From the NCBI GenBank assembly GCA_000004985.1, contig GG738889.1: 64,000 nucleotides of DNA, one strand, 5' to 3'. The translations under genes and the position numbers were made by a program. The notes beneath the pieces are model-generated. The model saw only the letters and a list, made by a program, of their open reading frames with translations. It searched no databases and was not told where the DNA came from. Position 1 is the first letter of the stretch, and each line of letters starts with the position of its first letter. The DNA is from Naegleria gruberi (Eukaryota). Positions 9,494-45,875 of this stretch are shown one piece after another.

Positions 9494-9640
9494 TGATTGT
9501 TTGAAGAAGCAAATTCTATTCTTCAATATTTCTCAAATGTTATTTTCCATTCAATGAATTTCTTTTCATTTCTCTTGATTTTCCTTCCAACTAATGGGAC
9601 GATTGTTATTGAAGAAGCAAATCCCATTCTTCAACCTTTT
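9494..9640. repeat. Imperfect direct repeat of about 38 nt: copy A at 9494..9533 in the 3' UTR and copy B at 9600..9640 covering the last codons and stop of the kinase.
   Basis: The two copies are gattgtttgaagaagcaaattctattcttcaa and gattgttattgaagaagcaaatcccattcttcaa, about 85% identical and about 105 nt apart. Confidence 0.6.
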
Positions 9641-12600
9641 TCAATATCACATCAATAGAAGGTCGTTTACCTGGCTCATGACTCCACATCTGGCGAATCA
9701 CTTTTGTCATTTCAAAAATCAATTCATGGTGAATTACTTGTTCCTTATCAAGAAATTCCTCACACCATTTCTTACACTCTTCACAAGTTGAGAATGGAAT
9801 GATTGGCCTCAAATTCTCCTCACAAACACTCTTATGGAAGTGATACGAACTACTAAATGGTGTTGGTTTGGTGATTTTCAACTTTTTGAGAACGTTTGGA
9901 TCTGAGCTATGGTAAGGTTCAATAATTTCGAATAATAATTGCCACATAATGATGGCCAAACTGTAGATATCAATAGAACGGGCGTCCTCTCTCTCAATTT
10001 CACCAGAGAAAAGCTCCGGAGCCATAAATGAGCTGGTTCCAATCTGACTGGTAATTGCTGAAATTGTGTGAGAACAAAAAGCTCGTCCTAATCCAAAATC
10101 ACACAGTTTGGCAGTTCCACTTTTATCGAGAAGGATATTGGCTGGTTTCAAATCTCTATTCCACAAATGAAAGATTATTTTAGGTGAAATTTAGTATTAA
10201 TACATACCTGTGGACAATGAAATTCGGTTCCAAATGATGCAAATAATAAATTCCACTCACAATGTTCCTCAATATTGCCAATTTTTCATTGAGAGTGCAT
10301 TTGGAATAGCCACGTTGCATGGATGCAATCATTGCCTCTAAACTCTTATCCATGCACTCCATGGCAATGAATCTCTTTGTTGGTGTCGATGAAACACCAT
10401 AGAAATTGATAATATTTGGATGCCTTAATTTGCTTAATAAAATTGCTTCCACTTTGAAATCATTTTCTGAAATACTCAAATTATTCAAATCGAATACCTT
10501 GACTGCAATTGTCATTCCATTGAATTTGGTTGCAAAAACAGAACCCATTCCACCTTCTCCGAGTCTCTTGATTGGTTTGTCCATATTGAGTTGTTCTATT
10601 GGAATGATGAATTTATCTGCCTCTTCCACATAGTAAGAACTAGATCCCATACTTGATTCATAATGGTCCAACAATCTTTCATCTAAAACCAGATCAGTTT
10701 CAGTCAGTTTCTTATTCTTTCGTTTTACAGAAATATACGAAATAAAGATAATGAAACAAATGGCAGTAACGATGAGTAAAACAATGGCAGATGAGAGTCC
10801 CAATCCGAGGGCAATCGTGTTGATACTACAATCCTTTCCAAAGTAGGAAGATTGACAAAGACACTCATCCTGTTTTACACATGTTCCATGTCCTGAGCAA
10901 GCACTTGATCCTGATTGACCAAAACAAATAGCAACCCCACAATCTTTTCCTGTATATCCACTATTACAAACACAATTATCTGGTGCTGTACAAGATCCAT
11001 TTCCATGTGAGCAAACTTCCACAGATGTCTTTGGATAATTAAAGCAAATTGGTAATTGACAGTTATTGCCAAAAAAACCTTGATTGCAAGAACATTGATT
11101 AATATCGAAACAATTTCCGTTTCCACTACACACTGATTCTGAAATATTTGCTGGTATTCCAAAACATATTGGAATACACATTGTCAAATCTCTACTCAAA
11201 AGGTAACCCTCTCTACAAAATGGTGTCAGTTGTCTCACGACATTTTGAGTAGAATCTGATAAGTAAATCGATCCAGAACTAGGGGAAATTGTAAATCCTT
11301 GTGGAGATGCCAAATAATCACTCGTTGCCAAAATTTCATTCAAATCCAATTCTTTCACAGTTGAATTTCCAGCAATTGTGTAAACTAGATTAATTCCATT
11401 TCGTCTACTTATTTTCCTAATCATTGCATTCAGTGAATCAATGAAAATAATATCCACAAAATCAGGAGGTACCAATTTCACTATAGTTGGATAATTAAGC
11501 TCTGCCTGTTCAGCAATTCCATCTATGTATCCAGGATTTCCACTGCCTGCAATGGTGGAAATTGATCCATTCACATGAATCATTCTAATTCTATTATTAT
11601 TCGAATCGGCGAATATAATTTCATTATCCAAATTGATGGCAATTCCGGTTGGCTGAGCCAAAAGTGCAGACTTAGCATCATTTGAATCTCCATTAAAACC
11701 ATATCCCTTTCCTGCAATTGTTGAAATTATTCCATTTCTATCAATCTTTCTAATCTTGTTATTTCCAAAATCGGTCACATAAATTTCTCCATTGAGAGGA
11801 GAAACAGAAACCGCATAAGGTTTAATTGAAGCATAGGATGCCAATCCCTTATCACCTATTCCACCAACTATAGTCTTGACGATACCAGTTTTAAAATTGT
11901 AAAGTTTCACCAAATTACTGTAAGTATCAGCAATTGCCAGATATTGAGTTCCACCACTTGGTAACTGGAGATATCTGACGCTTGAAGGATAGCTGAGCTT
12001 GGATTTGATTCCCAATCCCTCCTCAAATTCTCCACCTCCAATCAATGTATCAGCAATTCCAGTAGAAATCGAGACAGTCCTAATCCTATTATTATTAGTA
12101 TCAGCTATAAACATGGTATTCTGTGAAATGGTTATACTTTTAGGGAGATAGAGTTCCATATTTCTAACAAATCCACCGTCACCTCCATTACCAATTTCAC
12201 CTGTGCCTGCATAGGTATCTGTAACACCATTAATAGTGGCATATCGAATTCTGTGATTACCCGTATCGGCAATGCAAATCATTTGGCTATCTACCACGAC
12301 AACATCCTCAGGAAAGCTCAATTGAGTTTCAGTTGATAAAATATTATCACCATTGAATCCTTCATGTCCAGAACCAGCAACTGTCTTTACCATTTGAGAT
12401 GTACTACTGCCCAAGTAAATTGATCTAATTCTATGATTTCTAGAGTCGGCAACCAGTAAAACTTTATCAGCAGAGTCAATATGAATTCCTTTTGGCTATA
12501 GAGTTTGTAAATATTGCAAATTATCAAAAATTTCAAACTTACACTATTAAATGTTGTGTTCAACAGTGTGTTATCTCCATTAAAACCCTTCACTGTTGGT

Positions 12601-14393
12601 ATTCCAGCAAATAGTTCCAATTTTCTAGTTCTAATATTCACTCGCCACAAACAATGTTTTTCACTATCTGAAAAATAAACATAATTACTTATATAGGCAA
12701 TGCCAACTGGAGTGCCAATACCACTGTCCTTTGAAACCAGTGTTTGGGATATTCCAGTACTAACATCTACCATTAAAACTCTATAATTCTTTGTGTCTGA
12801 AACAAATAGAGTGACATTCTTTTCGAGATTGTAATTCACTACTGCAACACAAACTCCTTGTGGACTGTTGAGAACTTCTGATAAACCATCAACCATTTGT
12901 GTATTGGTTGAATTAAAGAAGAATGATCCAGTCATTGGTTGAGATTCTAGAGTATTCAAATTGAATTTCACAAGAAAATTCGAAGCCCAATAGTTAATAT
13001 TATTAACTACGAGTAAGTTTGATTGGTGATCAGTGGTAATTGATATTGGATCAGTAAATATAGGAATCTTACTGTGTAATCCACGTTTCAAATCTAATAG
13101 AGAAGTGCTAATCCTTTCAGATATTCCACTCATAAATGAATATTTCAGTAAACGAGCTGATTGAGAATCAGAAATCAGCAATTCCTCTTCTCCATTCTTA
13201 TTCTTAATAATGATCAAATCTTTTGGTGATCTGAGACCAGTCATTGTTCCTCTGGTTTTTTCAGCAAAGGGAACCCTACTCGAGTAAATTGTTGAAATTA
13301 ATCCTGACCTTCTATCCACCATTCTCATTTCATCTGAAACATCCACAAAAACAATTGCTCCTCCAATGGAAATTGTGACTGATATTGCATTGGTTATTTG
13401 AGCTTCAATGGCTAGCCCTCCATCGCCCAATGATCCTGTGTTTGTTCCCTTAATGACATGTTCGAAAACTCCCATTTCGAGTGAATTCACACTTTCATCC
13501 TGATTGTAAACAGTTGTAAATTTCTTAGATGTCACTGCTTGAGGTCCAGAAAAATAAAAAGTTTCTTCCACAATCGTATTAAGTCCATTTTGATATGTTT
13601 TCAAAGAGGTAACATCAAAAGCAAAAGACATACTATTCCTACAGTCAAAAACAGTACGTGTTCCATTTCTGAATATTCTTTCACCTTTTGATTGAAGTAA
13701 AACTTGCCATTCATCTCTTTCATTAATGATAATTCCTTGAATTGACTCTGAAAAAGTCCTGTACAGAGATACATAACCATTCCTTAACAAGAATACATTG
13801 TAATCTTGTGTGAAATAAACATCAATTTCATCCATATTCGAATACTTGTTAATTGGAACGGAGATTGTTTGGGGATAAATAGAAATTGATGTGGCATTCA
13901 CTTTTTCTGTGGAATCCAAAAATTTACATTGACCATCTCCAGCCAAAGTTGTGATCATTCCATCTGCAGTGTTTAGTCTCTTCAAAAAACAATCCGAATA
14001 GAAATAAATTAAATCAATTGCTCTAGTTGACGACGATTGAAAGGAAACAACCTGAAACTTGGGCCAAACATTGGACCGAACAAAACTGATATCACCTGTT
14101 TCAATGTTCAATTTTGCAAGTTGATATCCTTCACTACCTGTGTTTGATGTGAAATAAATAATGTTTGGATCAACTTTTGAGAACATTGCCCTCGCAGCAA
14201 CGCCAGACAGCTGGTTCTTCTTCTCCAAATATCCAATAACAGGTTTTGATTTATATTGCACAAGTCTCTTCCGAACTAAACTTTCCGTTGTTGGTATTTC
14301 TTGTTGACAAAAAACTGGTGATGTGAAAAACAATGTCACGATTAAAAAACACATCAAAACAGATGCCTCTTTACTGAAAGATAATGATGACAT
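9606..14393 (-). CDS. Receptor protein kinase with an NHL-repeat beta-propeller ectodomain, EGF-like Cys-rich modules, one TM helix and a TKL-like kinase domain, about 1562 aa. It has 3 exons: 14393..12543, 12495..10208 and 10155..9606.
   Basis: A signal peptide (MSSLSFSKEASVLMCFLIVTLFFTSPVFCQQE) is followed by multiple NHL-type repeats (…YVTDFGNNKIRKI…, …IFADSNNNRIRMI…, …IADTNNNRIRTV…). Next come EGF-like modules (CSGNGNCFDINQCSCNQGFFGNNC…CVCNSGYTGKDC…CLCQSSYFGKDC), a TM helix (GLSSAIVLLIVTAICFIIFISYI) and the kinase. The kinase carries GEGGMGSVF, AVKV, HRDLKPANILL (with the HR|D codon split by an intron), DFGLG and APE. The introns are 47 nt (12496..12542, GTAAGT..TAG) and 52 nt (10156..10207, GTATGT..TAG). 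Confidence 0.85.
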
Positions 14394-14413
14394 TTTTTTC
14401 ACTCTCTTACAAG

Positions 14414-23834: not shown

Positions 23835-24401
23835 ATGCGATGCAAAGCTTCAAGTGAATCCCTAGAAGCGATCCAATCCTTCTTCATATCAAATTCCATC
23901 ATTCATAATAGTAATGAAATTAATCACCAACAACATGAATCAAAAAGTAACAAACAAAAGGAACAAGATTCAAATTCTTCATTGTTTGGAAACTTTTCCT
24001 TGATCGGAAGGGATGTATGGCAAGAGGTGATTATGAAATTTATTAATCCGATAGAATTGATGCATATGAGAAGAGTTTCAAGTGAATTTAATTTTTGGAT
24101 TGAATGTTTGGATGATGAATTGTATTGGAAAGAGTGCCAGATGAAGAATATGAGAGGAATGATCAAGGGAATGATCATTGATCCGATATCGGAAAAGTAT
24201 TTTCTCAGATATTGGAAAATATTGATGGAAAAAACACGGAATAATACTGATGAAAAGTTTTCCTATAGAAAAATTACCTTAGATATTTGCAAAGATTTAC
24301 AAATGGAAAGGAGGATTAATGTAAATTATAGAATTTATTTGAATAAGGGATTAATTGATGAGAAACATTTGAAAATTCCACAAAAGGATGAGTCAATTTA
24401 G
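23835..24401 (+). CDS. F-box domain protein of 188 aa, terminated by TAG.
   Basis: The F-box signature VWQEVIMKFINPIELMHMRRVSSEFNFWIECLDDELYWKE follows an N/Q/S-rich N-terminus. Start is ATG 23835. Confidence 0.65.
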   Translation: MRCKASSESLEAIQSFFISNSIIHNSNEINHQQHESKSNKQKEQDSNSSLFGNFSLIGRDVWQEVIMKFINPIELMHMRRVSSEFNFWIECLDDELYWKECQMKNMRGMIKGMIIDPISEKYFLRYWKILMEKTRNNTDEKFSYRKITLDICKDLQMERRINVNYRIYLNKGLIDEKHLKIPQKDESI

Positions 24402-25016
24402 AATGTGAGAACTGCTATTATTATTGAGGGAAAACTAGCAACAACAAATGCACTCTTGTTCACTTATCATGATGGCATATTTCCATATGATTACATTCCA
24501 ACTATTTTCTCTAATACAGATATTAAGGGATTGGTCCTCAAATCGGAGAGTTCACAAGCCAAGATTACATATTCCAATTTTCCAATGATGTGTTTCGAGA
24601 GTGTGAGTGCACATTTAACATTTTACAATAATGCAGTTGTTTTAATTTTTTTTAACAAGTTATTGAGATCGAGTTGGAATGAAGTTGCCCATTCTATCAT
24701 TCCTTCACTTTCTATAAAACCTGGATGTATTTATATTCTGATAGGACTAAATTGGGGTGCACTATCTCAGAATAGCTCAATGTATAATTTGAAGTATACA
24801 TGCGAGCATTATTCGGATGAATTTGTGGCAAATAGTGAAATTTTGGAATATATTCATGGAAAGAAGTTTCTTGCATATGTTGATTTGAAACCAAGAAGTG
24901 AGAAGGAAATATTTACATTTATGGATTCGATTGTTAAATTGGTCGTTATGAAAGATAAGGGATATAATTTATTTGAAAAGGATTTTCTTGCCAAAGTTGA
25001 CGATATTTCTCGATAG
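24402..25016 (+). pseudogene. Degenerate Rho-family pseudo-GTPase domain. It lies in the same frame as the upstream F-box ORF, separated from it only by one TAG codon. It is either a disabled fusion or a read-through or independently initiated product.
   Basis: The ORF aligns residue-by-residue with the Rho G-domain: IIIEGKLATTNALLFTYHDGIFPYDYIPTIFSNT against Rho [34 protein letters not shown]. The P-loop (GxxxxGKT), DTAGQ and NKxD motifs are all lost. There is no ATG at the ORF start. Confidence 0.45.
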
Positions 25017-25542: not shown

Positions 25543-27262
25543 ATGAAGAATATATTATTGATGTGTGCCAAGTATGAATCGGTTGGAATTATCAAAATGT
25601 TATTTTCCGATTTTAAAACACAAGTGATGGCAATTATCGATAAGACTGATGTAGGTTTAACCTCTGTTGAAATTACGATTATATCATCATTATTGATTTT
25701 AATAGTGGCCTTCGAATTATGTAGGTTTATAAAATTGTTGAGGATTATTGGAAATATTGTTGTGATGAATGATGGAATTATTATATGAAATATTGGAAAA
25801 ATTAGACGGCTTTGCATTGGGCTTGTTATAATCAAAATTTGGAGATTGTGAAAATTCTGGTGGAGAATGGAGCCAACACAACACTTGAAAATGTAGGTTA
25901 TTGTTAAAGGTTATTTCAAAAACGAAACTTGAATAGGCGGATGGTCATAAAGCAATTGATTTGTGTGAGAAAAATTCATCAGTTTATTCATATTTAGCAA
26001 GTGATAGAGCTTCATTGTTTGATTGGATGAAAAAGACTCTTCAACCAAACAAGTACAATCATTCGAATTATAAACCATCGGGAAATGAGGACTATGTCAC
26101 AACAGATACTGATGATGGGTTAGTATTTATTTATTCGAATGTATTATTCACACATGTGAAATCTTAGTTTTGTGGAAATTGAAAAGGTGGAGGTTATTGA
26201 AACGGAGAAAACTCAACGAGAGGAATCAAAGCCACTCACAAGCAAATTACAAATTTTGGAAAATATTACAAAGAGCTTTGCCAAAACTTTTAAAATTGAA
26301 TCGACACTTTCACATGACATTACATCGAGTGTTAGATTTTCCAAAGTTAATGACATGGAATTAATGGATCCTATTGCCTCGGGAAGTGAAGGAAAGGTAT
26401 TCTATGGAAGGTGGAAAAAGCAATCAGTTGCCATCAAGGTCATTGAAGTGCCCTACCTCACTGAGGGGCTTGTGGAAAATTTAAATTTAATTCTCAACAT
26501 TTCACACAAGTATTGTGTCTCTCACCATTCATTTTCCTATGATGAGGAAAATTGTAAATTGTACATAATTATGGAACTTATGAATACCAACCTGTTCAAG
26601 TATATTTTCAGACAAAGGAAAGAATTGACTCTAAAAGAAAAGGTTCATGCATTACATAGTATTTCTATTGGAATGTTCTATTTGCACGATATGAATCCTC
26701 CTGGTAGGTTAGGAATTTCATTAGATTGTTAACAATATTATTTTACATAATATTGAAAATAGTTTTAAATTTGGATTTGAAATTGGAAAATATCTTGATT
26801 AATATTGGAAATGATGGAAGACCTTCAGATATCAAAATTTGCGACTTTGGATTGTCAATGTTTAAGAGCAAGGCAGAATTCATTAAATTGACAGATCCAG
26901 TGGGTACTTTGAGAGCCATTGCCCCAGAAATTCTTCATAATTTCACATGTTCTGAAAAATCAGATGTCTACTCATTTGGAATTTTAATGTATGAATTATT
27001 ATTCGGAAGAGTTGCTTATTATGACTATTTGGAAAATGCAAATGAAAATGATGGAGATGACTTGTTGTTGAATATTGTCAATAATCACAAACGACCAACT
27101 ATTCCATCTGACTATACAATGCCAACTCTCAATCAAGAACGAACAAGTGTGGAAACCTTAATAGATATGATGCAGAAATGTTGGGTGGAAGATCCAAAAC
27201 AACGACCAACCTTTGACCAAATTACTACAGAATTGGAAAAGATTGTTTTGCCGTGCAAATAA
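25543..27262 (+). CDS. Ankyrin-repeat protein kinase, non-RD and TKL-like, about 470 aa. It has 5 exons: 25543..25650, 25806..25892, 25937..26118, 26168..26703 and 26763..27262. There may be an extra 5' exon at 25295..25408.
   Basis: The ankyrin motifs are NILLMCAKYESVGIIKMLF and TALHWACYNQNLEIVKILVENGANTTLEN. The kinase motifs are ASGSEGKVFYG, AIKV, a catalytic loop NLDLKLENILI split by a phase-1 intron, DFGLS and APE. The introns are 25651..25805 (155 nt, the least certain), 25893..25936, 26119..26167 (GTTAGT donor) and 26704..26762. All restore the frame. Confidence 0.7.
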
Positions 27263-27522: not shown

Positions 27523-30500
27523 TTATTCTCTTTTAAATGTAATGGTGCCCATTGTTCTATCCAACATTTCAATTCTTTGGTCTTCATAGTCAGCACTACA
27601 CACAGATCTCAATTCATCTCTATGATCCAAAGTTGGCACAATACTCACCATTCTAGTAACATTTTGAACTTTGTATCTTCTAGAAATTATAATTAAGGCA
27701 ATAATGGAACTAACACAGACAAACAAGACGGCAACATAACCACCAATGACAGAACCAACAATAATACCAACCAAGTTGATATACGTAACTGGAATACTAC
27801 AATCCTCTCCAAGATAACCCAAATCGCATTTACAAACACCACTCAAACACTTGCCGTTCAATGAACAGAAGTTTGGACATACCAAAACTGCTGTGCATGA
27901 ACCATTATTGCTGCATGAATCTTGAGCAACGGCTGTAGCAGAAGCCATAGCATATTCAACCAAACCAGTTGACAAGACATCGAACATACATGATTCGTAG
28001 AATGATGCTGTCAATCCCAAACTATTACAAGCCTTTTCAGCCAAAGCTTGTAGAGTAGCATTTTCCGAAGAGGCCTTCATAATAGGCTTAAAGTCAAGAA
28101 CATTAAGGTCTTCATATTGAGATCCAACAGTATAAGTAAAGAAGGATTCATTCTTTGAAATTCTCCAACTTTCACCAAAAACTTGGTGAATTTGTTCAGC
28201 AGTAGGTGAAGGAAGAACAGTACCATCTCTCAATGTAAATTCATTGTCCTTATTTCCATCGAGTGTACCATACAAACCTCCAAGTTCAGTACCAGTAAAG
28301 TTAACATCCTTTGATGGAGCAAATGAAACAGCCAACCATCCAAGTCCATCATTTCTCAATTTGATTTGACCCTTGAAATCACCACTATACTTGACAGTAA
28401 TGGATTTGTAATAAAACTTCAAACCATTAACCATGTAATAACTTGATGTATCATCTTCTTGGGTAATTGTGGCACCTCCATTCAAAACAAGAATTGGGGT
28501 ATCTGGTTCCTTATACACAAGTTGTGATTCTGTGATATTGGCAACTTGGTTAGTGTCTGGATCGACTTGACCCTTAATTTGTTCTACTAACTTTTGAAGA
28601 TCCTTTGGAATTTCAAACTTGGTATCAGCTTCAACAGGTTGAACATTGACTTTTGTTTCATTGAGATAAACTTGAACATCATTGACAAGAACCTTAACAC
28701 CAGTCTTACCATCAGACAAGATTGAAACCTTATCCGATCCGCTCATGAATGAAATACCCTTCATACATGATGTCTTTGAATCTGCTGTACATTTCATCAA
28801 TCTACCTTGTAATCCCAATTCATTAGACTTGTACAAGTAGAATTCACCAATTGAATTGAATGTATATTCTGCAGCATCAACAGTTCTAAGGTGAATATCA
28901 CCAAAGGCCAAAACCTTATTGACCAAATCAAATATGTGAACAAGACTACAATCTGATCCTCCAAAACCTGGGAAACAAGCACAAGTATTTGGACCAACAC
29001 AAGTACCTCTTCCTCCACACCAATTTCTATGGACACAATGGAATGATGAACAGGTTTCAGTGTACCAACCCCATCTACAGACACATTCATTTGGTCCAAC
29101 ACATTTACCTCTCTTAGCACCACCACAACTTGATCTATTAGCACACAAATCAGTATCAATGACAGCAACACAATTAGATCCAGGAGGAACATAGGTAGCC
29201 TCTTCAATATAGACAGTTGCTTCCTTCTTGACTGGAAGAGTGACAATATTATTCTTACAATCATAAGTAGTTAGACCATCTGTGAAATTGGATGGTGAGA
29301 GATTTCTAGTTGGTGAACCATCAGTAAATTCAATCTTAACTTTCAATGGTCCCCATTTGACAAATCCAATGGAAACACTCAAAGTTGTGGAACCTTGCCA
29401 ATCGAGTCTTATCTTTTCAGGTGTACCAACAACACCAAGCCAATCAATGGAATATCTATAGATACCATAATCCATGTAAAGTGCTCTGTACCACCATTCA
29501 CCCCAATATTGCAATCTACCATTCAACTTTTCACTATATCCATTAGTACTATTCACTCTAGCTCTATCAATACCATTGGTAATGGCTGGAGTTGTAATTT
29601 CAAATCTCTTGAAATTCACAGATTCGTCACAAATGAAAGCATTCCATTCCTTAACATAGGCACACAAAATTGGATCGACCATGATCATAGTACTTGGAAT
29701 AATTCTAGCACCAGCTCTTCTGATTTTAGAAGGTACAGTAATATTTCTAGATAAAGTGCCGTCAGTATCAATAATAACTTCATGTCTATAAACATCAGAC
29801 AATGATGATTCCTTAGAAGCCAAACCAGCAAGTAAATACATAACGTTAGCATTGTGGAAATACATTCTATTGGTAACATAATCACCTTGATTCATTGAAG
29901 CCCAATCATCATTTCTAAGATCAATGGATGATAGCTTTCTTTCACAATTATCAACAAAATCAAAGAATTCCAAATCTTGAAGAAGTAAAGTATTACCATC
30001 ACGATGATATAAAACACCGATAAATGGATCATTTCTACTGTATGAAGGAAGTGATCTATAATATGGTGAGGATGGATTCTTGTAATCAGTTCCACATCTA
30101 TAACATTGACCATCATTACAATTATTTGGATTACCCTTATTTTGTGTAAAACCAATAAAGATGGCACCACTAACAACAATTGGACTCATAATGATATTAA
30201 GGACAGTATAACTAACTGGATTGTCTGCAAAGATACTTCCCTTCAAATTGAGTTTTCCTTGAACGTGGGAGTATTGACCATTTTGTCTATTCTTCCAAAT
30301 GTTCATATTCTCAAATACTGGTTCAGACCAAGGATTCTTATCAGTACCACAATTAGTTGAATCATACATTTCCATCTTTGGATTTGTGCATGTGTAAAAG
30401 TTTGGATACAACATCATACCATGTTGATTATTACTGTGGGCAGTGTTGTTAACAAATTGTCCCCAGTACCATCTATTAGGTCTAATATATGGAGTTTGAG

Positions 30501-33500
30501 AAGCACCTGTAGCATAGGAATCCAAATGATACCAGAAACCAAAAGCATCACTTCCAGCTGCACGATTTCCAATGAAAATATTGTTTGGATTGGTAATGTA
30601 GAAGGTGGCTGGATTATTGTCTTGATTGTCTGGAAGCATGACAGATCTTGAATCTGGAATGACCTTTGAAAGTATACCAAGATTATTTTCGAAAATGTTA
30701 TACTGTTCAGCACCATCTTCAAGGAAGAAAGTATGTCCATAAATATTGAAAGCAACAACTCCTTCAACGTGTAAATAATTGGTTCCTTGCAATGCAACAG
30801 CTCTTTGATAGGTATCATAGACTGAAACCTTGTGGACATAGGAAGTATTGGCATCACCAAACAATTGGAAGTAAATTGGATAACGACCTGGAATACCAGC
30901 TTGACCCATTCGTGTGAATTCAACATTATCAAGTCTGACATATTGAGCAGTTCTGAGGAAGGCAGTGTGACCACCAAACATTGAATCTTCACTTGTTGCC
31001 AAATCACCTCTAATCTTAATATTGTGCGATAACAAACCAACTTCACCACGTTCATCAAATGTAACAACAGTTCCATTAGCCTTTTGATAGTATTCTGTAT
31101 TGGCATAGTGACCATAGACGAGTGGTTTAACAAATCCAAAACATGTACTATTGAAACGGACTGAAATTGTTCTTCTTTCAGCTTGATTGTGATAGTAATC
31201 AGTGGAAGCTAGAACAATTTCATCACCAACTTGCCATTCAGTTGGTTGTTTAAGATGAACGGAAGTATCACCAACTTGAGCTGATTTACCCAACAAAGTC
31301 CAAGAAACTTCATGTTTCTTACCATGCAAGCTCAAAGCACCTCCACTGGTTACAATGATATTCTTAACACCAAATCCAATTAAAGTTCTATTGAGATTTC
31401 TTTCACCGTGAAGTGTAATTGTGGCATTGTGTTGATGAGGGCTGGTTTCATTACCTATTTGGAGAGAACCAGTAACAATCATCGATTTAAAGTGCATTTC
31501 CAAATCAAGCTCATCACTGAAAACTAAACAACCAAATACATGAACAACGTCCAATTTTGGAGGAATGACATCCAAAATAACAGTATAGTTTTCTGGAACA
31601 ACCAAAATTCTTTCGGGTTCAAGATAGAGAGAATCATCCTCTTCTTCTTCATCAATATAGTTGTTGGTAGAATTGGTTGTAGAGTTGGTGGAATTGTGTG
31701 AAATGAGAGTATTATTAACAAGAATGAATGTTGAATTATCGCCATAGCAATTTGTAACATTGAAAATGGTTCTATTAAGGGAACAAACTGTTGAGGTATT
31801 TACAGTAATTTGATTACAGACAACACTGGTAACATTCTCTGAAATGTAGGTAGTATTGCTGCAGTTTGAATTAGTTACTGAAATACACATGGCATCTCCA
31901 TTGGAACAAGTTGAACAATTAGCACTATCACAAGTGAATGAATCAATATGAGTGAAGATGACACAATCAGTATGGTTTGTATAGTAGAATCCATCGAATG
32001 TTGAATTCGTATAACATTCAGTGGTGTGTTCTGTAGCATAACAGTCATAGATATCTTCACGAGTAATCTCAGTTGTGCAATTGGTAGTGCTATTGAATTG
32101 AGAATCATCAATATTTGAACTATTGCTATTGGATGTATTGTTAGAATCAGTTGTTGAACTATTACCAATAGTTGAGTTACCGTCAACAGTAGAGTTATTA
32201 TCAGTTGTTGAGTTTCCAGCAATTGTTGAGTTATCATTAGCTATTGTGGAGTTATCAGAAGTGGAATTGTTAAAGGTGGAGTTATCACTTGTAATAGTAC
32301 CATTATTTACAATTGTTGAATTATCTGAAGTGGAATTATTTGAATCAGTTGTATTATTACTAGTTGTGGAATGATCAACTAGAGTAGAATTACTTCCATC
32401 AATATTGGTGGAATTGTTATCACCAATGTCAGTACTATTATCAACATTTGTTCCATTATTATTATCAACTGTGCTATTATTGTCAGCTGTATTGTTGTTT
32501 TGAACAGTGGAGTTAGAATCGAGAGTTGAATTGTTTTCACCAATTGTACTGAAATCACCAACAGTAGCATTACTACCATCAGTGGTGGAATTATCAACTA
32601 GAGTTGAATTACCATCGATTGTGGAGTTATCACTTGTTGAACTATTAGATTCAGCTTGAGCAGTAATATTAACACAAGTTGTTGAAATACTCAAAACANN
32701 NNNNNNNNNNNNNNNNNNNNNNNNNNNNNNNNNNNNNNNNNNNNNNNNNNNNNNNNNNNNNNNNNNNNNNNNNNNNNNNNNNNNNNNNNNNNNNNNNNNN
32801 NNNNNNNNNNNNNNNNNNNNNNNNNNNNNNNNNNNNNNNNNNNNNNNNNNNNNNNNNNNNNNNNNNNNNNNNNNNNNNNNNNNNNNNNNNNNNNNNNNNN
32901 NNNNNNNNNNNNNNNNNNNNNNNNNNNNNNNNNNNNNNNNNNNNNNNNNNNNNNNNNNNNNNNNNNNNNNNNNNNNNNNNNNNNNNNNNNNNNNNNNNNN
33001 NNNNNNNNNNNNNNNNNNNNNNNNNNNNNNNNNNNNNNNNNNNNNNNNNNNNNNNNNNNNNNNNNNNNNNNNNNNNNNNNNNNNNNNNNNNNNNNNNNNN
33101 NNNNNNNNNNNNNNNNNNNNNNNNNNNNNNNNNNNNNNNNNNNNNNNNNNNNNNNNNNNNNNNNNTATAGTAGAATTGTTGTCTATTGTTGAATTGGAAT
33201 TGGTAGTTGAATTATCAACATTAGTGGTATTATCATAAAGCGTTGAATTGTCAACGTTAGTAGAGTTGTCCATTGTGGAATTGGAATCAGTCGTTGAATT
33301 ATTAACATTAGTGGTATTATCACCTGTGGCTGTTGTTGAATTGTTCTCCACTGTTGAGTTATAGCTAACTGTACCATTTGAATCTGATTGTGTTGAATTG
33401 GAAAGTGAGTCGGTAGTGTTTTGGACAGTTCCATTATTAGTAGAAATGGTCGAATTATCAGTAGAATTATTAGATATCGAGGTGTCATTCAAACCAGAGG

Positions 33501-34641
33501 TACTATTATCAACACTTGTTGAATTATCTATTTCTGTAGAATTGGAATCAAAAGTGCTATTAGAATCAATTGTAGAATTATCAATATTGGTATTATTGGA
33601 ATTATTACCATTATCAATATAAGTATTGTTATTATTAGTATTATCATCAGTGTTAGTGGAATTACCAGTATGAGTAGAATTATCTCTGGAAGAATCATTA
33701 ATAAAATGTGTATTATTATTCCCAATAATGGATGAATTATTCACAAGTGAGGAATTGCTCACAACTGTTTCATTCTTAACAATCACTGGATCCATGTATT
33801 CAGTCAAATTTCCATACAATTCAGACCACTTGATCACTTGTGATGGACAATTATCACCAATACCATGTCCATATGGATTCAACTTGGTTGTTGTGAAAAT
33901 AATTGCTTGATTACCAATACCATAACTATTATATCCAGTAAACTTGTTATATGGAAGAATTCTAAAACTGTAAGTCTTGTTTTCATCCAAATTATATCTT
34001 GTGAAATTATTGACATTATAAGATTTGTAAGTAATAGTAGTATATCCAACTGCATTCAATGTAGACATTTGAATTTGGATATAACAAATAGTACTAGCAG
34101 AAACATCTGGCATTTTCCACTTTAACAATACACTGTGATAGGTTGGAATTGCTCTAAAATTGTAAATGCTCGCAACTGATGATGCAGAAGGGAATGGAGC
34201 AACACTTGAATTATTGCCAGGATCAGACAAGTCCTTCAGGTTGTATCTTCTTGTTGGAGGACCTCCATAGTACCACGAACAACAAGGATCACCCAATTCA
34301 TCACCATTGGTTAAGCCATCTCCATCAGAGTCCTTCATGCAGAGATCAGTGTTCCAGGCATAATTGTTATTCATGAAATCTCTTCCGAAAGATGTTAAAT
34401 TACCATCCTTTTTGAAAATGTTCTGAAAGAGAGGTGAATTAGCAAAGGTGAGACCATTAGGAAGTTTGGCCACATCAAAATCCAAAGCAGTTACCATTCC
34501 CATACAGCAATAGAAGGAAATTACAATTCCTATCATGATCATTAATATCCTTGAGGATGAGGATGACCAAGACAGCTGATGTCTTGCTGTATTCTTCTTC
34601 ATCCTGTTATCATCATCATTCCCGAACAAGGAACGCATCAT
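27523..34641 (-). CDS. Giant membrane glycoprotein of about 2370 aa with a TMEM2/CEMIP-like domain arrangement. The order is an N-terminal signal-anchor, an FN3-like region, an N-glycosylation sequon array, a G8 domain, a right-handed beta-helix region, EGF-like modules, a VWD-like domain, more EGF modules, and a C-terminal TM helix.
   Basis: The G8 region (…GSLQIGNETSPHQHNATITLHGE…GGALSLHGKKHEVSWTLLGKSAQVGDTSVHLKQPTEWQVGDEIVLASTDY) and the following RYPIYFQLFGD…HVEGVVAFNIYGHTFFLEDGAEQYNIFENNLG…NPNNIFIGNRAAGSDAFGFWYH are collinear with TMEM2/CEMIP. The EGF modules are CVCRWGWYTETC and CACFPGFGGSDC. The VWD-like motif is GGLYGTLDGNKDNEFTLRDG. The TM helix is GIIVGSVIGGYVAVLFVCVSSIIALIII. The ORF is uninterrupted except for the N-gap 32689..33165. 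The first ATG is at 34641, with a possible signal-anchor IMIMIGIVISFYCCMGMVTA. Confidence 0.85.
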   Translation of the reverse strand: MMRSLFGNDDDNRMKKNTARHQLSWSSSSSRILMIMIGIVISFYCCMGMVTALDFDVAKLPNGLTFANSPLFQNIFKKDGNLTSFGRDFMNNNYAWNTDLCMKDSDGDGLTNGDELGDPCCSWYYGGPPTRRYNLKDLSDPGNNSSVAPFPSASSVASIYNFRAIPTYHSVLLKWKMPDVSASTICYIQIQMSTLNAVGYTTITYKSYNVNNFTRYNLDENKTYSFRILPYNKFTGYNSYGIGNQAIIFTTTKLNPYGHGIGDNCPSQVIKWSELYGNLTEYMDPVIVKNETVVSNSSLVNNSSIIGNNNTHFINDSSRDNSTHTGNSTNTDDNTNNNNTYIDNGNNSNNTNIDNSTIDSNSTFDSNSTEIDNSTSVDNSTSGLNDTSISNNSTDNSTISTNNGTVQNTTDSLSNSTQSDSNGTVSYNSTVENNSTTATGDNTTNVNNSTTDSNSTMDNSTNVDNSTLYDNTTNVDNSTTNSNSTIDNNSTIXXXXXXXXXXXXXXXXXXXXXXXXXXXXXXXXXXXXXXXXXXXXXXXXXXXXXXXXXXXXXXXXXXXXXXXXXXXXXXXXXXXXXXXXXXXXXXXXXXXXXXXXXXXXXXXXXXXXXXXXXXXXXXXXXXXXXXXXXXXXXXXXXXXXXXXXXXXXVLSISTTCVNITAQAESNSSTSDNSTIDGNSTLVDNSTTDGSNATVGDFSTIGENNSTLDSNSTVQNNNTADNNSTVDNNNGTNVDNSTDIGDNNSTNIDGSNSTLVDHSTTSNNTTDSNNSTSDNSTIVNNGTITSDNSTFNNSTSDNSTIANDNSTIAGNSTTDNNSTVDGNSTIGNSSTTDSNNTSNSNSSNIDDSQFNSTTNCTTEITREDIYDCYATEHTTECYTNSTFDGFYYTNHTDCVIFTHIDSFTCDSANCSTCSNGDAMCISVTNSNCSNTTYISENVTSVVCNQITVNTSTVCSLNRTIFNVTNCYGDNSTFILVNNTLISHNSTNSTTNSTNNYIDEEEEDDSLYLEPERILVVPENYTVILDVIPPKLDVVHVFGCLVFSDELDLEMHFKSMIVTGSLQIGNETSPHQHNATITLHGERNLNRTLIGFGVKNIIVTSGGALSLHGKKHEVSWTLLGKSAQVGDTSVHLKQPTEWQVGDEIVLASTDYYHNQAERRTISVRFNSTCFGFVKPLVYGHYANTEYYQKANGTVVTFDERGEVGLLSHNIKIRGDLATSEDSMFGGHTAFLRTAQYVRLDNVEFTRMGQAGIPGRYPIYFQLFGDANTSYVHKVSVYDTYQRAVALQGTNYLHVEGVVAFNIYGHTFFLEDGAEQYNIFENNLGILSKVIPDSRSVMLPDNQDNNPATFYITNPNNIFIGNRAAGSDAFGFWYHLDSYATGASQTPYIRPNRWYWGQFVNNTAHSNNQHGMMLYPNFYTCTNPKMEMYDSTNCGTDKNPWSEPVFENMNIWKNRQNGQYSHVQGKLNLKGSIFADNPVSYTVLNIIMSPIVVSGAIFIGFTQNKGNPNNCNDGQCYRCGTDYKNPSSPYYRSLPSYSRNDPFIGVLYHRDGNTLLLQDLEFFDFVDNCERKLSSIDLRNDDWASMNQGDYVTNRMYFHNANVMYLLAGLASKESSLSDVYRHEVIIDTDGTLSRNITVPSKIRRAGARIIPSTMIMVDPILCAYVKEWNAFICDESVNFKRFEITTPAITNGIDRARVNSTNGYSEKLNGRLQYWGEWWYRALYMDYGIYRYSIDWLGVVGTPEKIRLDWQGSTTLSVSIGFVKWGPLKVKIEFTDGSPTRNLSPSNFTDGLTTYDCKNNIVTLPVKKEATVYIEEATYVPPGSNCVAVIDTDLCANRSSCGGAKRGKCVGPNECVCRWGWYTETCSSFHCVHRNWCGGRGTCVGPNTCACFPGFGGSDCSLVHIFDLVNKVLAFGDIHLRTVDAAEYTFNSIGEFYLYKSNELGLQGRLMKCTADSKTSCMKGISFMSGSDKVSILSDGKTGVKVLVNDVQVYLNETKVNVQPVEADTKFEIPKDLQKLVEQIKGQVDPDTNQVANITESQLVYKEPDTPILVLNGGATITQEDDTSSYYMVNGLKFYYKSITVKYSGDFKGQIKLRNDGLGWLAVSFAPSKDVNFTGTELGGLYGTLDGNKDNEFTLRDGTVLPSPTAEQIHQVFGESWRISKNESFFTYTVGSQYEDLNVLDFKPIMKASSENATLQALAEKACNSLGLTASFYESCMFDVLSTGLVEYAMASATAVAQDSCSNNGSCTAVLVCPNFCSLNGKCLSGVCKCDLGYLGEDCSIPVTYINLVGIIVGSVIGGYVAVLFVCVSSIIALIIISRRYKVQNVTRMVSIVPTLDHRDELRSVCSADYEDQRIEMLDRTMGTITFKRE
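31900..33700 (-). repeat. Coding low-complexity tandem array of about 15-nt-period units encoding (D/N/S/T)-N-S-T, that is dozens of N-x-S/T sequons. It includes the N-gap.
   Basis: On the coding strand it reads …NSTIDSNSTFDSNSTEIDNSTSVDNSTSGLNDTSISNNSTDNSTISTNNGTV…. On the plus strand it appears as the reiterated gaattg/gttgaatt/attggaatt motif. Confidence 0.85.
32689..33165. other. Assembly gap of 477 N inside the sequon-array repeat of the G8 gene.
   Basis: A literal run of n flanked by the NST repeat on both sides. Confidence 0.99.
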
Positions 34642-35426
34642 CTTTATAAAATTAAAATTGTTCGGTTTAAAACACCAAGTTCTCCAACACAAATGTTTCT
34701 CTTGTTTTTTTTAAGGCAAATCCCGCACTAAGATATTTCAGTTGTGAGGATGTTAATAATTCAATAACGAAACAAACCTGTGTAATAAATTAAATAGTGT
34801 GAGGAATAGTTTGATGTTTTTTTTCACTTGGTCAATGTTGAGGAGAATAGTTGATGGCCCTCCATTTACCAACGGCCTCAATCCATTCACATTGTTGATG
34901 CAACACAATGGTGGTGAGGAAGATATTAATATCCTTTAGGTTGTATGGTCTCCTGAATGCCACTGTATAACAAACCGAAAAACGTCAATTTTAATTAGGA
35001 GAGCTTCACAAATTTGACACCACATTGTCAGAGACAGTTTTGGCAAATCTCACAACATTGTGCTTAGAGCGCATGTATTCCATAATATTGTATAATATAA
35101 CATTGTCTTAGGAGTGGTGTTAAATAGCTTTCAATTTTTTTGGAGATTTCGTTGAAAATCTAACTGCTGTAATGCTGCTGTTAAAAAGAAAATCAATGAT
35201 ATTACAGGTAGTTATTCATTAATTAAGTTGTTTCTTTTGATAGAAGGAATTGTATTAACAAATAGAGTATTCACAGACCATTGTAAGTAAGGAACAAATG
35301 GTTTTATACGGCAATCGTTACAGAATTGCCAAACCTGAGGGACAGAGCTGTTCGATAATGAATCTTCCAAAGAATCAAGGACTCTTTACTCCTATTATTC
35401 CGTAAACTATGAAATTACAAATAAGT

Positions 35427-44050: not shown

Positions 44051-45875
44051 ATGGAAGATAATATTATACACGAGGCTATTGAAACATTGAACCTTTTTGA
44101 ACGTACTGATAGTTTAATTGAAGAATTCTTCAATAATAACAGCAAGGATGACAAGGAGAATGAAACTACAACAAGTATTGTCGATGAAAAGAAGGTGGCG
44201 GAAGGAGATGGAAGGATGGATTTGATGATTGAAGACCAATTAAAATACGACTTGCTGGTAGAAATTACAAAGGAAAGAGAACATGAACATACAAGAGTTC
44301 CTTCATCACCAGAAGATAAGGAACATGATGCTAATTTGTTTATTCATGGATTTGAGGAGAAGGTTCAAAAATTGTTTGATGACATTGTCGATTGTATTGA
44401 GGATGAGAATCATCAACATCATTACATTAACAATCAAAAGACAATTACTCCAGAAAAGATGAGACTCTTCATGAAAAAGTCCAAGATTTTGGTAGTAGAT
44501 GGAACTGTGGACGAAATTATGAGATTACATGACACCAGTAAGGATGGTCACTTGTCATTTGATGAATTCAAGCAATATATGATTGCTCAAGAATTACAAT
44601 TGAGAAAATTGTTTAATCAAATTGATTTGGATAACTCTGGAGACATTGGTATCGGAGAATTGAAGGCAATTTGTAAGAAACTCAAGTTGAAATTGAGTGA
44701 CAAAGAAATGAAACAAATTATGAAAATGATAGATAAGAACAAGTCAAATTCCATCTCTTATCAGGGTAAGTAATTTCTGATCGGTGTGTAAATTTACCCA
44801 AATATGTAAATCTTAATTGTTGGATTACTGAACTTTCGAATATTTTAAAATTTTATCAGAATGGTATGATTTTATGCATAGAAAGAAGTTAATCCCTATT
44901 CACAATAAGGATGTATCATTGAAAAGTGCTTTCAATATTTTAAAGAATGAATGTGAGGCAGATACAGAACATCCAAAGTGGAAATACTTCCTTGCAGGTG
45001 GTATGGCAGCTGCTGTTGCAAGAACAGCTGTAGCTCCACTGGAACGTTTGAGATGTCTCTACCAAATTCAAACTCAAATCACCAAACATAAGAATGGCCA
45101 ATTTTTGGAATTTCAATCAATCAGGGAGGGATTGAGAGAAATTGGTAAAGATGGTTACAAAGGACTTTTCAAAGGAAATGGTATGAATGTCATGAAAGCA
45201 ATTCCAGAGATTGCAGCCAGATCTTACTTTTATGAAATGTTCAAGAGATGGATCATTTATTACAATGATCACGTACCTGATGCTGTTTCTATTCAAATGC
45301 ATCAACGTTTTTGTGCCAGTGCATTTGCTGCTATGGCTGCCCAAGCTCTTATTTATCCATTGGATTCAATCAAGATGCATCTCATGACAAGAGAAAATGT
45401 AAATATTAGAGGAATTTTTAGAGATTCCTTAAAAGCTGATGGTTGGAGACAATTCTACAGAGGATGCACACCAGCAATGATTAGAGTGGGTCTTGACACT
45501 GGACTCTACGAAACGTTCAAGAAAATTCACTACACTTATTACAGCAGTCAAGATATCAATCATGACTATCCATCAATGCCAGCTGTCTTTATGATGGCAA
45601 CAGCTGCTTGTACAGTTAACCAAGTACTAACTTATCCACTCCAACTTGTAAGAACTCGTTTGCAAATGCAAAACGTTTTGGAAAGATCTCACATTACTGA
45701 CATTCACTATAATGGCATGTCAGATGCCTTTAAACAAATTTGGAAAACTGAAGGAATTAGAGGATTGTACAGAGGCAGTGTAGTTACATTCTTAAAGAGT
45801 GTTCCTACAGTTTCTACAACCTTATTTGCTTTCGAATTTGCCAAGAGAGAATTTGGTATTTATTCTCAAGTGTAA
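44051..45875 (+). CDS. Calcium-binding mitochondrial carrier of the SCaMC / ATP-Mg/Pi carrier type (SLC25A24-like). It has 2 exons: 44051..44765 and 44860..45875.
   Basis: The N-terminal regulatory domain has EF-hand loops (DLDNSGDIGIGEL, DKNKSNSISYQ). A 94-nt phase-1 intron (44766..44859, GTAAGT…TCAG) follows. The carrier domain has three repeats with P-x-[DE]-x-x-[KR]-type signatures (PLERLRCLYQIQ, PLDSIKMHLM, PLQLVRTRLQ). Confidence 0.8.

What the first reader, a model, noticed from the sequence alone, without database searches (positions are those of the whole stretch)
23835..25016. An F-box domain and a Rho-like pseudo-GTPase in one reading frame, separated by a single TAG
The ORF 23835..24401 has a clear F-box and ends at TAG 24399..24401. 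The next ORF continues in the same frame one codon later with no ATG. It aligns position-by-position with the Rho G-domain (switch I YIPTIFSNT against YVPTVFENY) but has lost the P-loop, DTAGQ and NKxD. TAG is otherwise almost unused in this window; essentially all other gene stops are TAA, with one TGA. The candidate explanations are (a) a sequencing error in a single F-box-pseudoGTPase gene, (b) programmed stop-codon read-through, or (c) a recently disabled gene. An F-box with a nucleotide-blind Rho fold as substrate adaptor would be a novel architecture.
Basis: seen in the sequence. Interest (0 to 1): 0.6.

Follow-up and report, generated by a model that had tools for sequence, protein, structure and literature searches.

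The report
F-box–pseudo-Rho gene split by stop
This is one Naegleria gruberi gene, encoding a weak F-box joined to a Rho-derived domain that has lost its GTP-binding motifs; in the reference strain a single G-to-T change (GAG to TAG) cuts it in two, most likely an ordinary recent knockout allele or a base error rather than recoding.

Summary
The window is Naegleria gruberi NEG-M. ORF 23835..24401 ends at TAG 24399..24401, and a 204-codon open frame follows in the same phase.

The reference annotates two genes, NAEGRDRAFT_71286 (188 aa) and 71287 (142 aa, starting at an internal Met). A near-identical Naegleria contig from a metagenome carries GAG (Glu) at that codon and encodes one 392-aa protein. 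N. lovaniensis homologues read straight through the equivalent region, and one of them (424 aa) has both domains in one ORF. So this is a single gene.

The F-box is below Pfam threshold in N. gruberi but passes in the N. lovaniensis homologue.

An intron is excluded. Programmed read-through has no support.

The gene evolves fast: 6 protein-changing versus 1 silent difference between strains, against 1 versus 14 in neighbouring genes. A recent nonsense allele is therefore most likely, and a sequencing error is second.

The architecture is a lineage-restricted variant of GTPase-plus-cullin-adaptor proteins (RhoBTB, Rab40, TbFRP).

The parts
23835..24401 (+). N-terminal half of the gene up to the premature stop. 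It is annotated in the reference as NAEGRDRAFT_71286 / EFC40900.1 (188 aa).
   Evidence: It is an exact match to the deposited N. gruberi protein.
24000..24140 (+). Divergent F-box-like motif, residues 56-102: LIGRDVWQEVIMKFINPIELMHMRRVSSEFNFWIECLDDELYWKECQ.
   Evidence: Pfam F-box scores 14.6 bits, E 0.033, below threshold. BLASTP to the N. lovaniensis homologue's F-box exon gives E 7e-9, and that exon passes Pfam F-box at 27.7 bits. hhalign of the family motif against canonical F-boxes gives 86.6% probability. The canonical LP is IG here.
24321..24398 (+). Linker peptide VNYRIYLNKGLIDEKHLKIPQKDESI. Together with the TAG it forms the only plausible in-frame GT..AG intron candidate (24321..24401, 81 nt), which was rejected.
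   Evidence: One search lists the candidate. The peptide is conserved in N. lovaniensis (RIYLAMINEKEFHKLKIPKNGEVV). It is uninterrupted coding sequence in L002.
24399..24401 (+). Premature TAG (codon 189). It is GAG (Glu) in the near-identical contig L002.
   Evidence: One search shows 24399 as T in the window and G in L002. One search shows P0006 reading ...KDESIENVRTAIIIEG...
24402..25013 (+). Rho-derived pseudo-GTPase domain (204 codons). Its last 142 codons are annotated as NAEGRDRAFT_71287 / EFC40901.1, starting at an internal Met.
24426..24449 (+). Degenerate P-loop position: EGKLATTN in place of GDGAVGKT.
   Evidence: alignment; alignment.
24486..24518 (+). Retained switch I / effector loop (YDYIPTIFSNT). 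The Y, Y and P residues are invariant in the family.
24747..24758 (+). Lost G4 motif: LNWG in place of [NT]KxD.
24759..24824 (+). Rho-insert-equivalent segment (ALSQNSSMYNLKYTCEHYSDEF). H-Ras has no counterpart.
   Evidence: alignment.
25014..25016 (+). Natural terminator of the gene, also TAG.
   Evidence: Homologues end at the equivalent position.

Best explanation
Bases 23835..25016 are one intron-less Naegleria gruberi gene. It belongs to a small, fast-evolving family restricted to Naegleria.

The intact product, seen in a sister strain, is a protein of about 392 aa. It has a low-complexity N-terminus, a divergent F-box, an alpha-helical linker and a C-terminal domain descended from a Rac/Rho GTPase. 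That domain keeps the G-domain fold, the switch I effector loop and the Rho insert. It has lost every nucleotide-binding motif and the prenylation signal.

Inferred mechanism: the F-box docks the protein on Skp1/Cul1. The nucleotide-blind Rho mimic acts as a constitutive binding surface for proteins that normally recognise Rho switch I (GEF, GAP, GDI or effector) and presents them for ubiquitination. Alternatively it acts as a decoy. Either would parallel RhoBTB-Cul3.

In the NEG-M reference, a single G-to-T substitution changes Glu189 (GAG) to TAG, three residues before the first strand of the G domain. Standard termination there would leave a 188-aa F-box-only stub, so this copy is most likely a very recent, possibly heterozygous, loss-of-function allele of a dispensable gene. 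The two reference gene models are an annotation artefact of that stop.

Shown: single gene, domain identities, sense codon in the sister strain, relaxed constraint. Inferred: SCF docking, Rho-partner binding, and that the T is real rather than a base-call error.
For: Source and annotation:
- The window is N. gruberi NEG-M, and the two halves are annotated as separate proteins.

Single gene:
- P0006 from contig L002 is a single 392-aa ORF with Glu at the TAG position. Across 1182 nt the DNA differs by only 7 substitutions and one in-frame codon deletion.
- An exhaustive HMMER search of 1.84 billion representatives finds only six relatives, four named as Naegleria (N. gruberi, N. lovaniensis) and two unnamed metagenome proteins (names).
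- N. lovaniensis P0019 (424 aa) has the F-box-like motif and the pseudo-G domain in one ORF.
- At the N. lovaniensis locus L003, an F-box exon (3660..3923) lies upstream of P0016. It joins in frame through a 62-nt GT..AG intron at a different place.
- The peptide encoded by 24321..24398 is conserved in P0016.

Rho descent:
-.

F-box:
-.

Relaxed constraint:
- Between the two strains this gene has 5 missense changes, 1 nonsense change and 1 codon indel against 1 synonymous change.
- The EF-hand, carrier and P450 neighbours have 1 missense against 14 synonymous. Fisher p = 6e-4.
- A partial homologue from a third Naegleria-like organism (L006) also carries an in-frame stop inside the domain, which fits a family that readily loses members.
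- No N. fowleri homologue was found.

The stop is recent:
- ORF2 in NEG-M has no further disabling change.
- At G342R the NEG-M residue is the one shared with L006.
Against: - No reads or transcripts could be examined, so a consensus base error in the Sanger assembly cannot be excluded.
- The intact downstream ORF is equally compatible with an error or with read-through.
- The N. gruberi F-box is below the Pfam threshold and lacks the canonical Leu-Pro that contacts Skp1, so SCF docking is uncertain even for the intact allele.
- The excess of protein-changing differences rests on only 7 substitutions. It could reflect diversifying selection on a functional adaptor rather than decay.
- Two independent in-frame stops in the family are both TAG and both sit in a 'TT TAG AAT G' context. 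A pure-decay model treats this as coincidence.
Confidence: 0.6

Rival explanations
1. The reference has a sequencing or assembly error. The NEG-M genome really carries GAG at 24399..24401, the gene is intact, and only the deposited consensus and its two gene models are wrong.
For: - The only other available copy has G at 24399.
- ORF2 shows no secondary decay.
- The stop lies in an otherwise well-conserved linker.
Against: - Real differences between the two sources occur at about 0.5% of coding sites. From my own knowledge, not measured here, that is far above the usual consensus error rate of a multi-fold Sanger assembly. Any single difference is therefore more likely real.
- The gene shows relaxed constraint, so a nonsense allele is not implausible.
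- A relative also carries an in-frame stop.
Confidence: 0.2
2. Leaky or programmed read-through of UAG. The TAG is real, but a fraction of ribosomes decode it, producing both an F-box-only stub and the full F-box/pseudo-Rho protein.
For: - The downstream ORF is intact and in frame.
- A second family member (L006 277..279) has an in-frame TAG at a different position with the same local context, TT TAG AAT G.
Against: - The stop is not conserved. It is GAG in L002 and a sense codon in all three N. lovaniensis paralogues.
- The +4 base is A, and there is no CARYYA or CUAG motif (known read-through contexts are from my own knowledge).
- The 100 nt downstream fold no better than shuffles, z = -1.43.
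- TAG is the normal terminator of this gene, of L006 and of P0019. P0019 ends in 'TAG AAT C', almost the same context, at the family's usual C-terminus.
- No other TAG-interrupted long ORF exists in the window.
- A literature search found no report of read-through in Naegleria.
Confidence: 0.08
3. Two independent genes, as annotated: a 188-aa F-box protein and a separate 142-aa protein starting at Met252.
For: Both models are deposited (EFC40900.1, EFC40901.1).
Against: - The 142-aa model starts in the middle of the G domain. It omits strand 1, helix 1 and the family-invariant switch I, which are conserved upstream of that Met in every homologue.
- The sister strain and N. lovaniensis P0019 encode both halves in one ORF.
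- There is no intergenic spacer, only one codon.
Confidence: 0.03
4. The TAG lies inside a spliced in-frame intron (24321..24401, 81 nt, GTAAAT...TTTAG), so the mRNA encodes a 365-aa fusion.
For: - It is the only GT..AG pair spanning the TAG that has a plausible donor (GTAAAT) and acceptor (TTTAG); three other in-frame pairs with poor splice-site sequences also keep the frame open to 25013.
- Short introns exist nearby: a 59-nt intron at 26704..26762 in the kinase gene.
Against: - The 26 codons it would remove are conserved as protein in N. lovaniensis P0016.
- Apart from the TAG itself they show no strain differences, whereas real non-coding flanks are full of substitutions and indels.
- In L002 the region is plain ORF.
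Confidence: 0.02

Closest known systems
RhoBTB / Dictyostelium RacA (atypical Rho GTPase fused to BTB domains, Cul3 adaptor)
   Same: A Rho-family G domain without a CAAX box is joined in one polypeptide to a cullin-RING ligase docking module (PMC8305917). Both give the same logic: a Rho-like surface attached to a ubiquitin ligase.
   Different: The docking module here is an F-box (Skp1/Cul1) and is N-terminal. In RhoBTB it is a pair of C-terminal BTB domains (Cul3). RacA and RhoBTB keep G1-G5, whereas this domain has lost all of them. There is no sequence relationship outside the G domain.
TbFRP (FYVE-F-box-GTPase of Euglenozoa)
   Same: An F-box sits N-terminal to a Ras-superfamily G domain in a discoban protist. 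This is a published precedent for the F-box plus GTPase combination (PMC3593210).
   Different: TbFRP has an additional FYVE domain, and its G domain is Rab18-like and apparently competent. Its authors found no orthologue in N. gruberi. The Naegleria family is Rho-derived and nucleotide-blind, so it is an independent fusion.
Canonical Rac/Cdc42/Rho GTPases
   Same: These are the best and only sequence matches. Switch I YxPT[VI]F, the FxxxSxxSxxN[VI] helix-3 cap and a Rho-insert-length segment are shared.
   Different: The P-loop GxxxxGK[ST], DTAGQ, [NT]KxD, SAK and CAAX are all absent. Pfam Ras does not match the N. gruberi protein.
Described pseudoGTPases (CENP-M, kappaB-Ras, AAGAB G domain, p190RhoGAP pG1/pG2)
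   Different: None of these is Rho-derived and fused to an F-box. There is no detectable sequence relationship.
Rab40 (Rab GTPase with C-terminal SOCS box, Cul5 adaptor); from my own knowledge, not tested here
   Same: A small GTPase domain is fused to a cullin-RING docking box.
   Different: Rab40 is a Rab rather than a Rho, carries a SOCS box rather than an F-box, and has an active GTPase.

Membership tests
F-box proteins (Pfam PF00646 / PF12937) | Match to the curated F-box profile at or above the gathering score | tested here: not met
   N. gruberi segment: PF00646 scores 14.6 bits (E 0.033) against a 20.5 cut-off. There is no hit when the whole ORF is scanned. The N. lovaniensis homologue's exon passes (27.7 bits F-box, 25.8 bits F-box-like). 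P0019 is sub-threshold at 18.5 bits.
F-box proteins (Pfam PF00646 / PF12937) | Homology of the motif to canonical F-boxes by profile-profile comparison or transitive homology | tested here: met
   BLASTP of N. gruberi residues 56-110 against the L003 F-box exon gives E 7e-9.
F-box proteins (Pfam PF00646 / PF12937) | Conserved Leu-Pro at the start of helix 1 (Skp1 contact) | tested here: not met
   N. gruberi has L-I-G-R-D, with no Pro. N. lovaniensis L003 has I-I-P-D-E, with Pro kept. P0019 has N-I-A-F-D. Pro is invariant in the canonical set.
F-box proteins (Pfam PF00646 / PF12937) | Binding to Skp1 and assembly into an SCF ligase | not testable with these tools
   Needs pull-down, two-hybrid or complex modelling.
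Rho family of small GTPases | Closest sequence relatives over the whole G domain are Rho/Rac/Cdc42 | tested here: met
   All of the best 60 PDB matches shown are Rho-family proteins. The best is E 4.5e-5 over query 10-182 and target 14-177. The family profile gives E 1e-4. The top Foldseek hits are Rac1, Cdc42 and Rho1.
Rho family of small GTPases | [quoted passage not shown] | tested here: met
   A 22-residue segment (24759..24824) aligns with the Rac1/Cdc42/RhoA insert, where H-Ras has a gap.
Rho family of small GTPases | G1-G5 nucleotide-binding and hydrolysis motifs | tested here: not met
   G1 is EGKLATTN, G3 has no DxxG, G4 is LNWG and G5 is DLKP. Only the G2/switch I Thr is kept. All family members share the loss.
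Rho family of small GTPases | C-terminal CAAX prenylation box | tested here: not met
   The protein ends ...KVDDISR*. There is no Cys in the last 60 residues.
Rho family of small GTPases | Pfam Ras (PF00071) at gathering score | tested here: not met
   No hit for the N. gruberi protein at E up to 10. Paralogue P0018 scores 16.2 bits against a 21.6 cut-off.
PseudoGTPases | G-domain fold | tested here: met
PseudoGTPases | No nucleotide binding or hydrolysis | not testable with these tools
   Predicted from loss of G1, G3, G4 and G5. Needs MANT-nucleotide or thermal-shift assays.
Programmed stop-codon read-through | The stop codon itself is conserved in orthologues, with coding conservation downstream | tested here: not met
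   Downstream conservation is present, but the stop is GAG in L002 and a sense codon in the N. lovaniensis paralogues.
Programmed stop-codon read-through | Stimulatory 3' context or downstream RNA structure | tested here: not met
   The context is UAG-AAU-GUG. The downstream 102 nt fold with z = -1.43. P0019 terminates at UAG-AAU-C.
Spliceosomal intron containing the stop | GT..AG segment whose sequence is not constrained as protein | tested here: not met
   The candidate 24321..24401 exists, but its peptide is conserved in N. lovaniensis and it is ORF in L002.

The most novel reading that the evidence does not exclude
In Naegleria, UAG in a 'UU UAG AAU G' context is partially decoded. This fast-evolving F-box/pseudo-Rho family would then use read-through to make two products from one gene: a substrate-less F-box stub, and a full adaptor carrying a nucleotide-blind Rho mimic. 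The in-frame TAGs in N. gruberi NEG-M (24399) and in the unrelated metagenome homologue L006 (277..279) would both be functional rather than lesions.
Probability: 0.07. Interest if true: 0.75.

Novelty: new variant of a known kind. Interest (0 to 1): 0.33.

Why it matters
The practical result is an annotation correction. NAEGRDRAFT_71286 and NAEGRDRAFT_71287 are two halves of one gene, and the N. lovaniensis model C9374_004600 appears to lack its F-box exon.

Biologically, this defines a small family seen only in Naegleria, in which a Rho GTPase has been stripped of nucleotide binding and attached to an SCF docking motif. It appears to be an independent, third way of coupling a GTPase-like surface to a cullin ligase, alongside RhoBTB and Rab40, within the same eukaryotic supergroup as TbFRP.

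If the Rho mimic does deliver Rho regulators to the proteasome, it would be a simple natural example of a pseudo-enzyme used as a substrate receptor.

The stop codon itself is most likely an ordinary strain polymorphism or a base error, and it says nothing new about the genetic code.

Tried and rejected
1. Intron hypothesis. I enumerated all GT..AG pairs spanning the TAG that keep the frame open. Only 24321..24401 was plausible, and it was rejected on protein conservation.

2. Direct Pfam assignment of either ORF gave no hit at E up to 1. Evidence had to come from PDB phmmer, homologues and profiles.

3. The search for homologous proteins with the spliced model found nothing. With the family alignment it found only family members already in hand. 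With the reconstructed N. lovaniensis protein it found only P0016. The word-index search is lossy here, since it missed P0016-P0018, which the exhaustive HMMER search found.

4. Searches for more strains or species found nothing. I tried search for related loci on metagenome contigs and an exact-pattern scan with N at the variable base. The allele question therefore rests on one extra contig.

5. ORF1 against PDB gave no hit at E up to 10. The family profile against PDB hit only Rho proteins and no F-box chains.

6. The full-length AlphaFold model was poor (pLDDT 52, F-box region below 50), so there is no structural test of the F-box. The ORF2-only model was better.

7. Synteny between the window and the three N. 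lovaniensis loci: none beyond the gene itself. Strict orthology of L003 is therefore inferred from best similarity only.

8. Literature searches for the sample accession PRJEB11402 and for read-through in Naegleria found nothing relevant.

9. Polarising the strain differences with outgroups was informative at only one site (G342R, where NEG-M is ancestral).

Full report
**What is in the sequence**

The window is gene-dense, about 34% G+C, and has long ORFs with occasional short introns. Exact protein look-ups identify it as part of a 348-kb scaffold of Naegleria gruberi NEG-M.

The ATG-initiated ORF 23835..24401 (188 aa) ends at TAG 24399..24401. The same reading frame stays open for another 204 codons, to a second TAG at 25014..25016. 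There is no in-frame ATG before Met251/252.

By base composition, a 204-codon open frame has a probability of about 4e-7. This is the only place in the window where two long ORFs are separated by one stop.

The reference annotation treats the halves as two genes:
- NAEGRDRAFT_71286 (EFC40900.1, 188 aa).
- NAEGRDRAFT_71287 (EFC40901.1, 142 aa, starting at the internal Met).

**One gene, not two**

The 90%-identity cluster of the 188-aa protein contains a 392-aa member, P0006, from a metagenome assembly (ERZ929261). It reads ...KDESI-E-NVRTAIIIEG... across the stop.

Its contig (L002) aligns to the window with only seven substitutions and one in-frame codon deletion in 1182 coding bases. One of those substitutions is 24399 T to G, so TAG in the window is GAG (Glu) in L002.

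An exhaustive HMMER search of 1.84 billion representative proteins found only six relatives, four from Naegleria species and two unnamed metagenome proteins:
- The two N. gruberi halves.
- Three N. lovaniensis proteins: P0016 (251 aa), P0018 (282 aa) and P0019 (424 aa).
- A 78-aa metagenome fragment, P0017.

P0019 carries the N-terminal motif and the C-terminal domain in one ORF, and UniProt names it 'F-box domain-containing protein'.

P0016 begins inside the linker. The peptide just upstream of the N. gruberi TAG (RIYLNKGLIDEKHLKIPQKDESI) matches its RIYLAMINEKEFHKLKIPKNGEVV.

At the P0016 locus (L003), an unannotated ORF at 3660..3947 encodes the F-box. It can be joined in frame to P0016 by a 62-nt GT..AG intron (3924..3985) at a different place. 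The N. lovaniensis model is therefore probably truncated.

**The intron idea**

The only plausible GT..AG segment that spans the TAG and keeps the frame is 24321..24401 (81 nt). A genuine 59-nt intron lies nearby, in the kinase gene at 26704..26762.

The 26 codons the candidate would remove are conserved as protein in N. lovaniensis and are ORF in L002. Apart from the TAG base, they carry no strain differences, whereas the flanking non-coding DNA is full of substitutions and indels. I reject the intron.

**The C-terminal domain**

Pfam finds nothing at E up to 1. phmmer against all PDB sequences returns only Rho-family proteins among the best 60 shown. The best is rice Rac1, E 4.5e-5, aligned over nearly the whole G domain. 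The family profile gives the same picture at E 1e-4.

The result:
- Switch I is retained (YDYIPTIF against EYIPTVF), and its Y, Y and P are invariant in the family.
- A segment occupies the Rho-insert position, where H-Ras has a gap. PMC8305917 calls the insert the most characteristic Rho signature.
- G1 is lost (EGKLATTN), as are G3, G4 (LNWG) and G5 (DLKP).
- The CAAX box is absent.

It is therefore a Rho-derived pseudoGTPase by sequence. Actual nucleotide blindness is predicted, not tested.

**The N-terminal motif**

'Clear F-box' is too strong for this sequence. The isolated N. gruberi segment scores 14.6 bits on PF00646 (E 0.033; cut-off 20.5), and the whole ORF gives no hit.

The evidence is transitive:
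- The homologous N. lovaniensis exon passes both F-box models (27.7 and 25.8 bits).
- It aligns to N. gruberi residues 56-110 at E 7e-9.
- The three-member family motif matches an alignment of nine canonical F-boxes by hhalign at 86.6% probability.

N. gruberi has Ile-Gly where canonical F-boxes have the Skp1-contacting Leu-Pro. N. lovaniensis L003 keeps the Pro. The domain is F-box-derived, but whether it still docks Skp1 in N. gruberi is open.

**What the TAG is**

Evidence against read-through:
- The stop is not conserved.
- The 3' context is UAG-A. From my own knowledge, purine at +4 favours termination.
- The next 100 nt fold no better than shuffles, z = -1.43.
- TAG is also the normal terminator of this gene, of L006 and of P0019. 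P0019 ends in TAG-AAT-C at the usual family C-terminus.
- I found no literature on read-through in Naegleria.

That leaves a real nonsense allele or a base error.

Between the two strains, this gene has 5 missense changes, 1 nonsense change and 1 codon indel against 1 synonymous change. The EF-hand, mitochondrial carrier and P450 genes 20 kb away have 1 missense against 14 synonymous. Fisher p = 6e-4. The gene is therefore under relaxed or diversifying selection.

Other points fit a birth-and-death family in which a nonsense polymorphism is unremarkable:
- The family is small and patchy, with one copy in N. gruberi, three in N. lovaniensis and none found in N. fowleri.
- A partial homologue from a third organism (L006) also has an in-frame stop.

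Naegleria is described as mainly a heterozygous diploid (PMC9928731), so the TAG may be one of two alleles.

Because ORF2 shows no secondary damage, the lesion is very recent, or it is an error. I put a real allele at about 0.6, an error at about 0.2 and read-through at about 0.08.

**An unexplained detail**

The two in-frame stops in the family are both TAG, and both sit in TT-TAG-AAT-G (window 24399; L006 277..279). I treat this as coincidence. AAT is a common codon in this AT-rich genome, and the P0019 terminator has nearly the same context. It is nonetheless the only thing keeping the read-through reading alive.

**How the intact protein most likely works (inference)**

The F-box docks on Skp1/Cul1. 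The Rho mimic cannot switch, but it keeps the effector loop. It could therefore bind proteins that recognise Rho switch I (GEF, GAP, GDI or effectors) constitutively and present them for ubiquitination, or act as a decoy.

This is the logic of RhoBTB with Cul3. It echoes TbFRP, the FYVE-F-box-Rab-like GTPase of Euglenozoa, for which no N. gruberi orthologue exists (PMC3593210).

**Comparison and novelty**

Nothing here is categorically new:
- GTPase-like domains fused to cullin-adaptor modules are known.
- PseudoGTPases are a recognised class.
- The N. lovaniensis paralogue with this architecture is already in public databases, although its Rho-like half is unannotated.

The specific F-box plus nucleotide-blind Rho combination was not found in the papers searched, and it is restricted to Naegleria. 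I therefore rate it a new variant of a known kind. The stop codon is ordinary.

**Verdict**

Interest is modest.

Noticed in passing
L006 277..279 (metagenome contig ERZ27254845 k141_1595075): A partial homologue of the pseudo-Rho domain, 45-49% identical, from another Naegleria-like organism has its own in-frame TAG at a different position (GINWGIL*NDPVM). The local context is the same as in the window (TT TAG AAT G). Its final stop is also TAG.
   Followed up: partly
L003 3660..3985 (N. lovaniensis PYSW02000021.1): The deposited model C9374_004600 (P0016, 251 aa) appears to lack its F-box exon. An ORF at 3660..3923 passes Pfam F-box and joins P0016 in frame through a 62-nt GT..AG intron (3924..3985). 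The true start codon upstream was not resolved.
   Followed up: partly
L003 3234..3305: A tRNA-Met (CAT) gene lies about 350 nt upstream of the N. lovaniensis F-box exon.
   Followed up: no
window 26172..27262: A TKL-type protein kinase gene is split over two frames by a 59-nt intron (26704..26762, GTAGGT...AATAG). Splicing restores the HxDLKxxN-region motif as PPV|LNLDLKLENILIN.
   Followed up: partly
window 44051..45875: EF-hand ORF and mitochondrial-carrier ORF are annotated as one 576-aa protein (EFC40904.1), a calcium-binding carrier architecture. The sister-strain contig L001 has a 1-nt insertion at 44722, near the end of the EF-hand ORF, presumably in the joining intron.
   Followed up: no
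window 10180..14402 (- strand): Two long ORFs overlap by about 28 nt in different frames. The downstream one encodes NHL repeats, EGF-like repeats and the N-terminal part of a kinase domain. This is probably one receptor-kinase-like gene with short introns, continuing into 9606..10166.
   Followed up: no
window 279..4550 and 58010..63361 (+ strand): Two large paralogous signalling genes share TmcB-type TPR and PAS domains. The second ends in an adenylate/guanylate cyclase domain.
   Followed up: no
window 32001..34000: G+C drops to 24% inside the 2389-codon ORF 27523..34692 (- strand). The sequence is low-complexity and repeat-like (for example CAACAATAGACAACA).
   Followed up: no
L006 583..779: Immediately downstream of the pseudo-Rho homologue, the same contig starts another gene with a canonical-looking F-box (LPEEIVQDNILSFLAGSELLCYVQFVSKHWQNM).
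   Followed up: no
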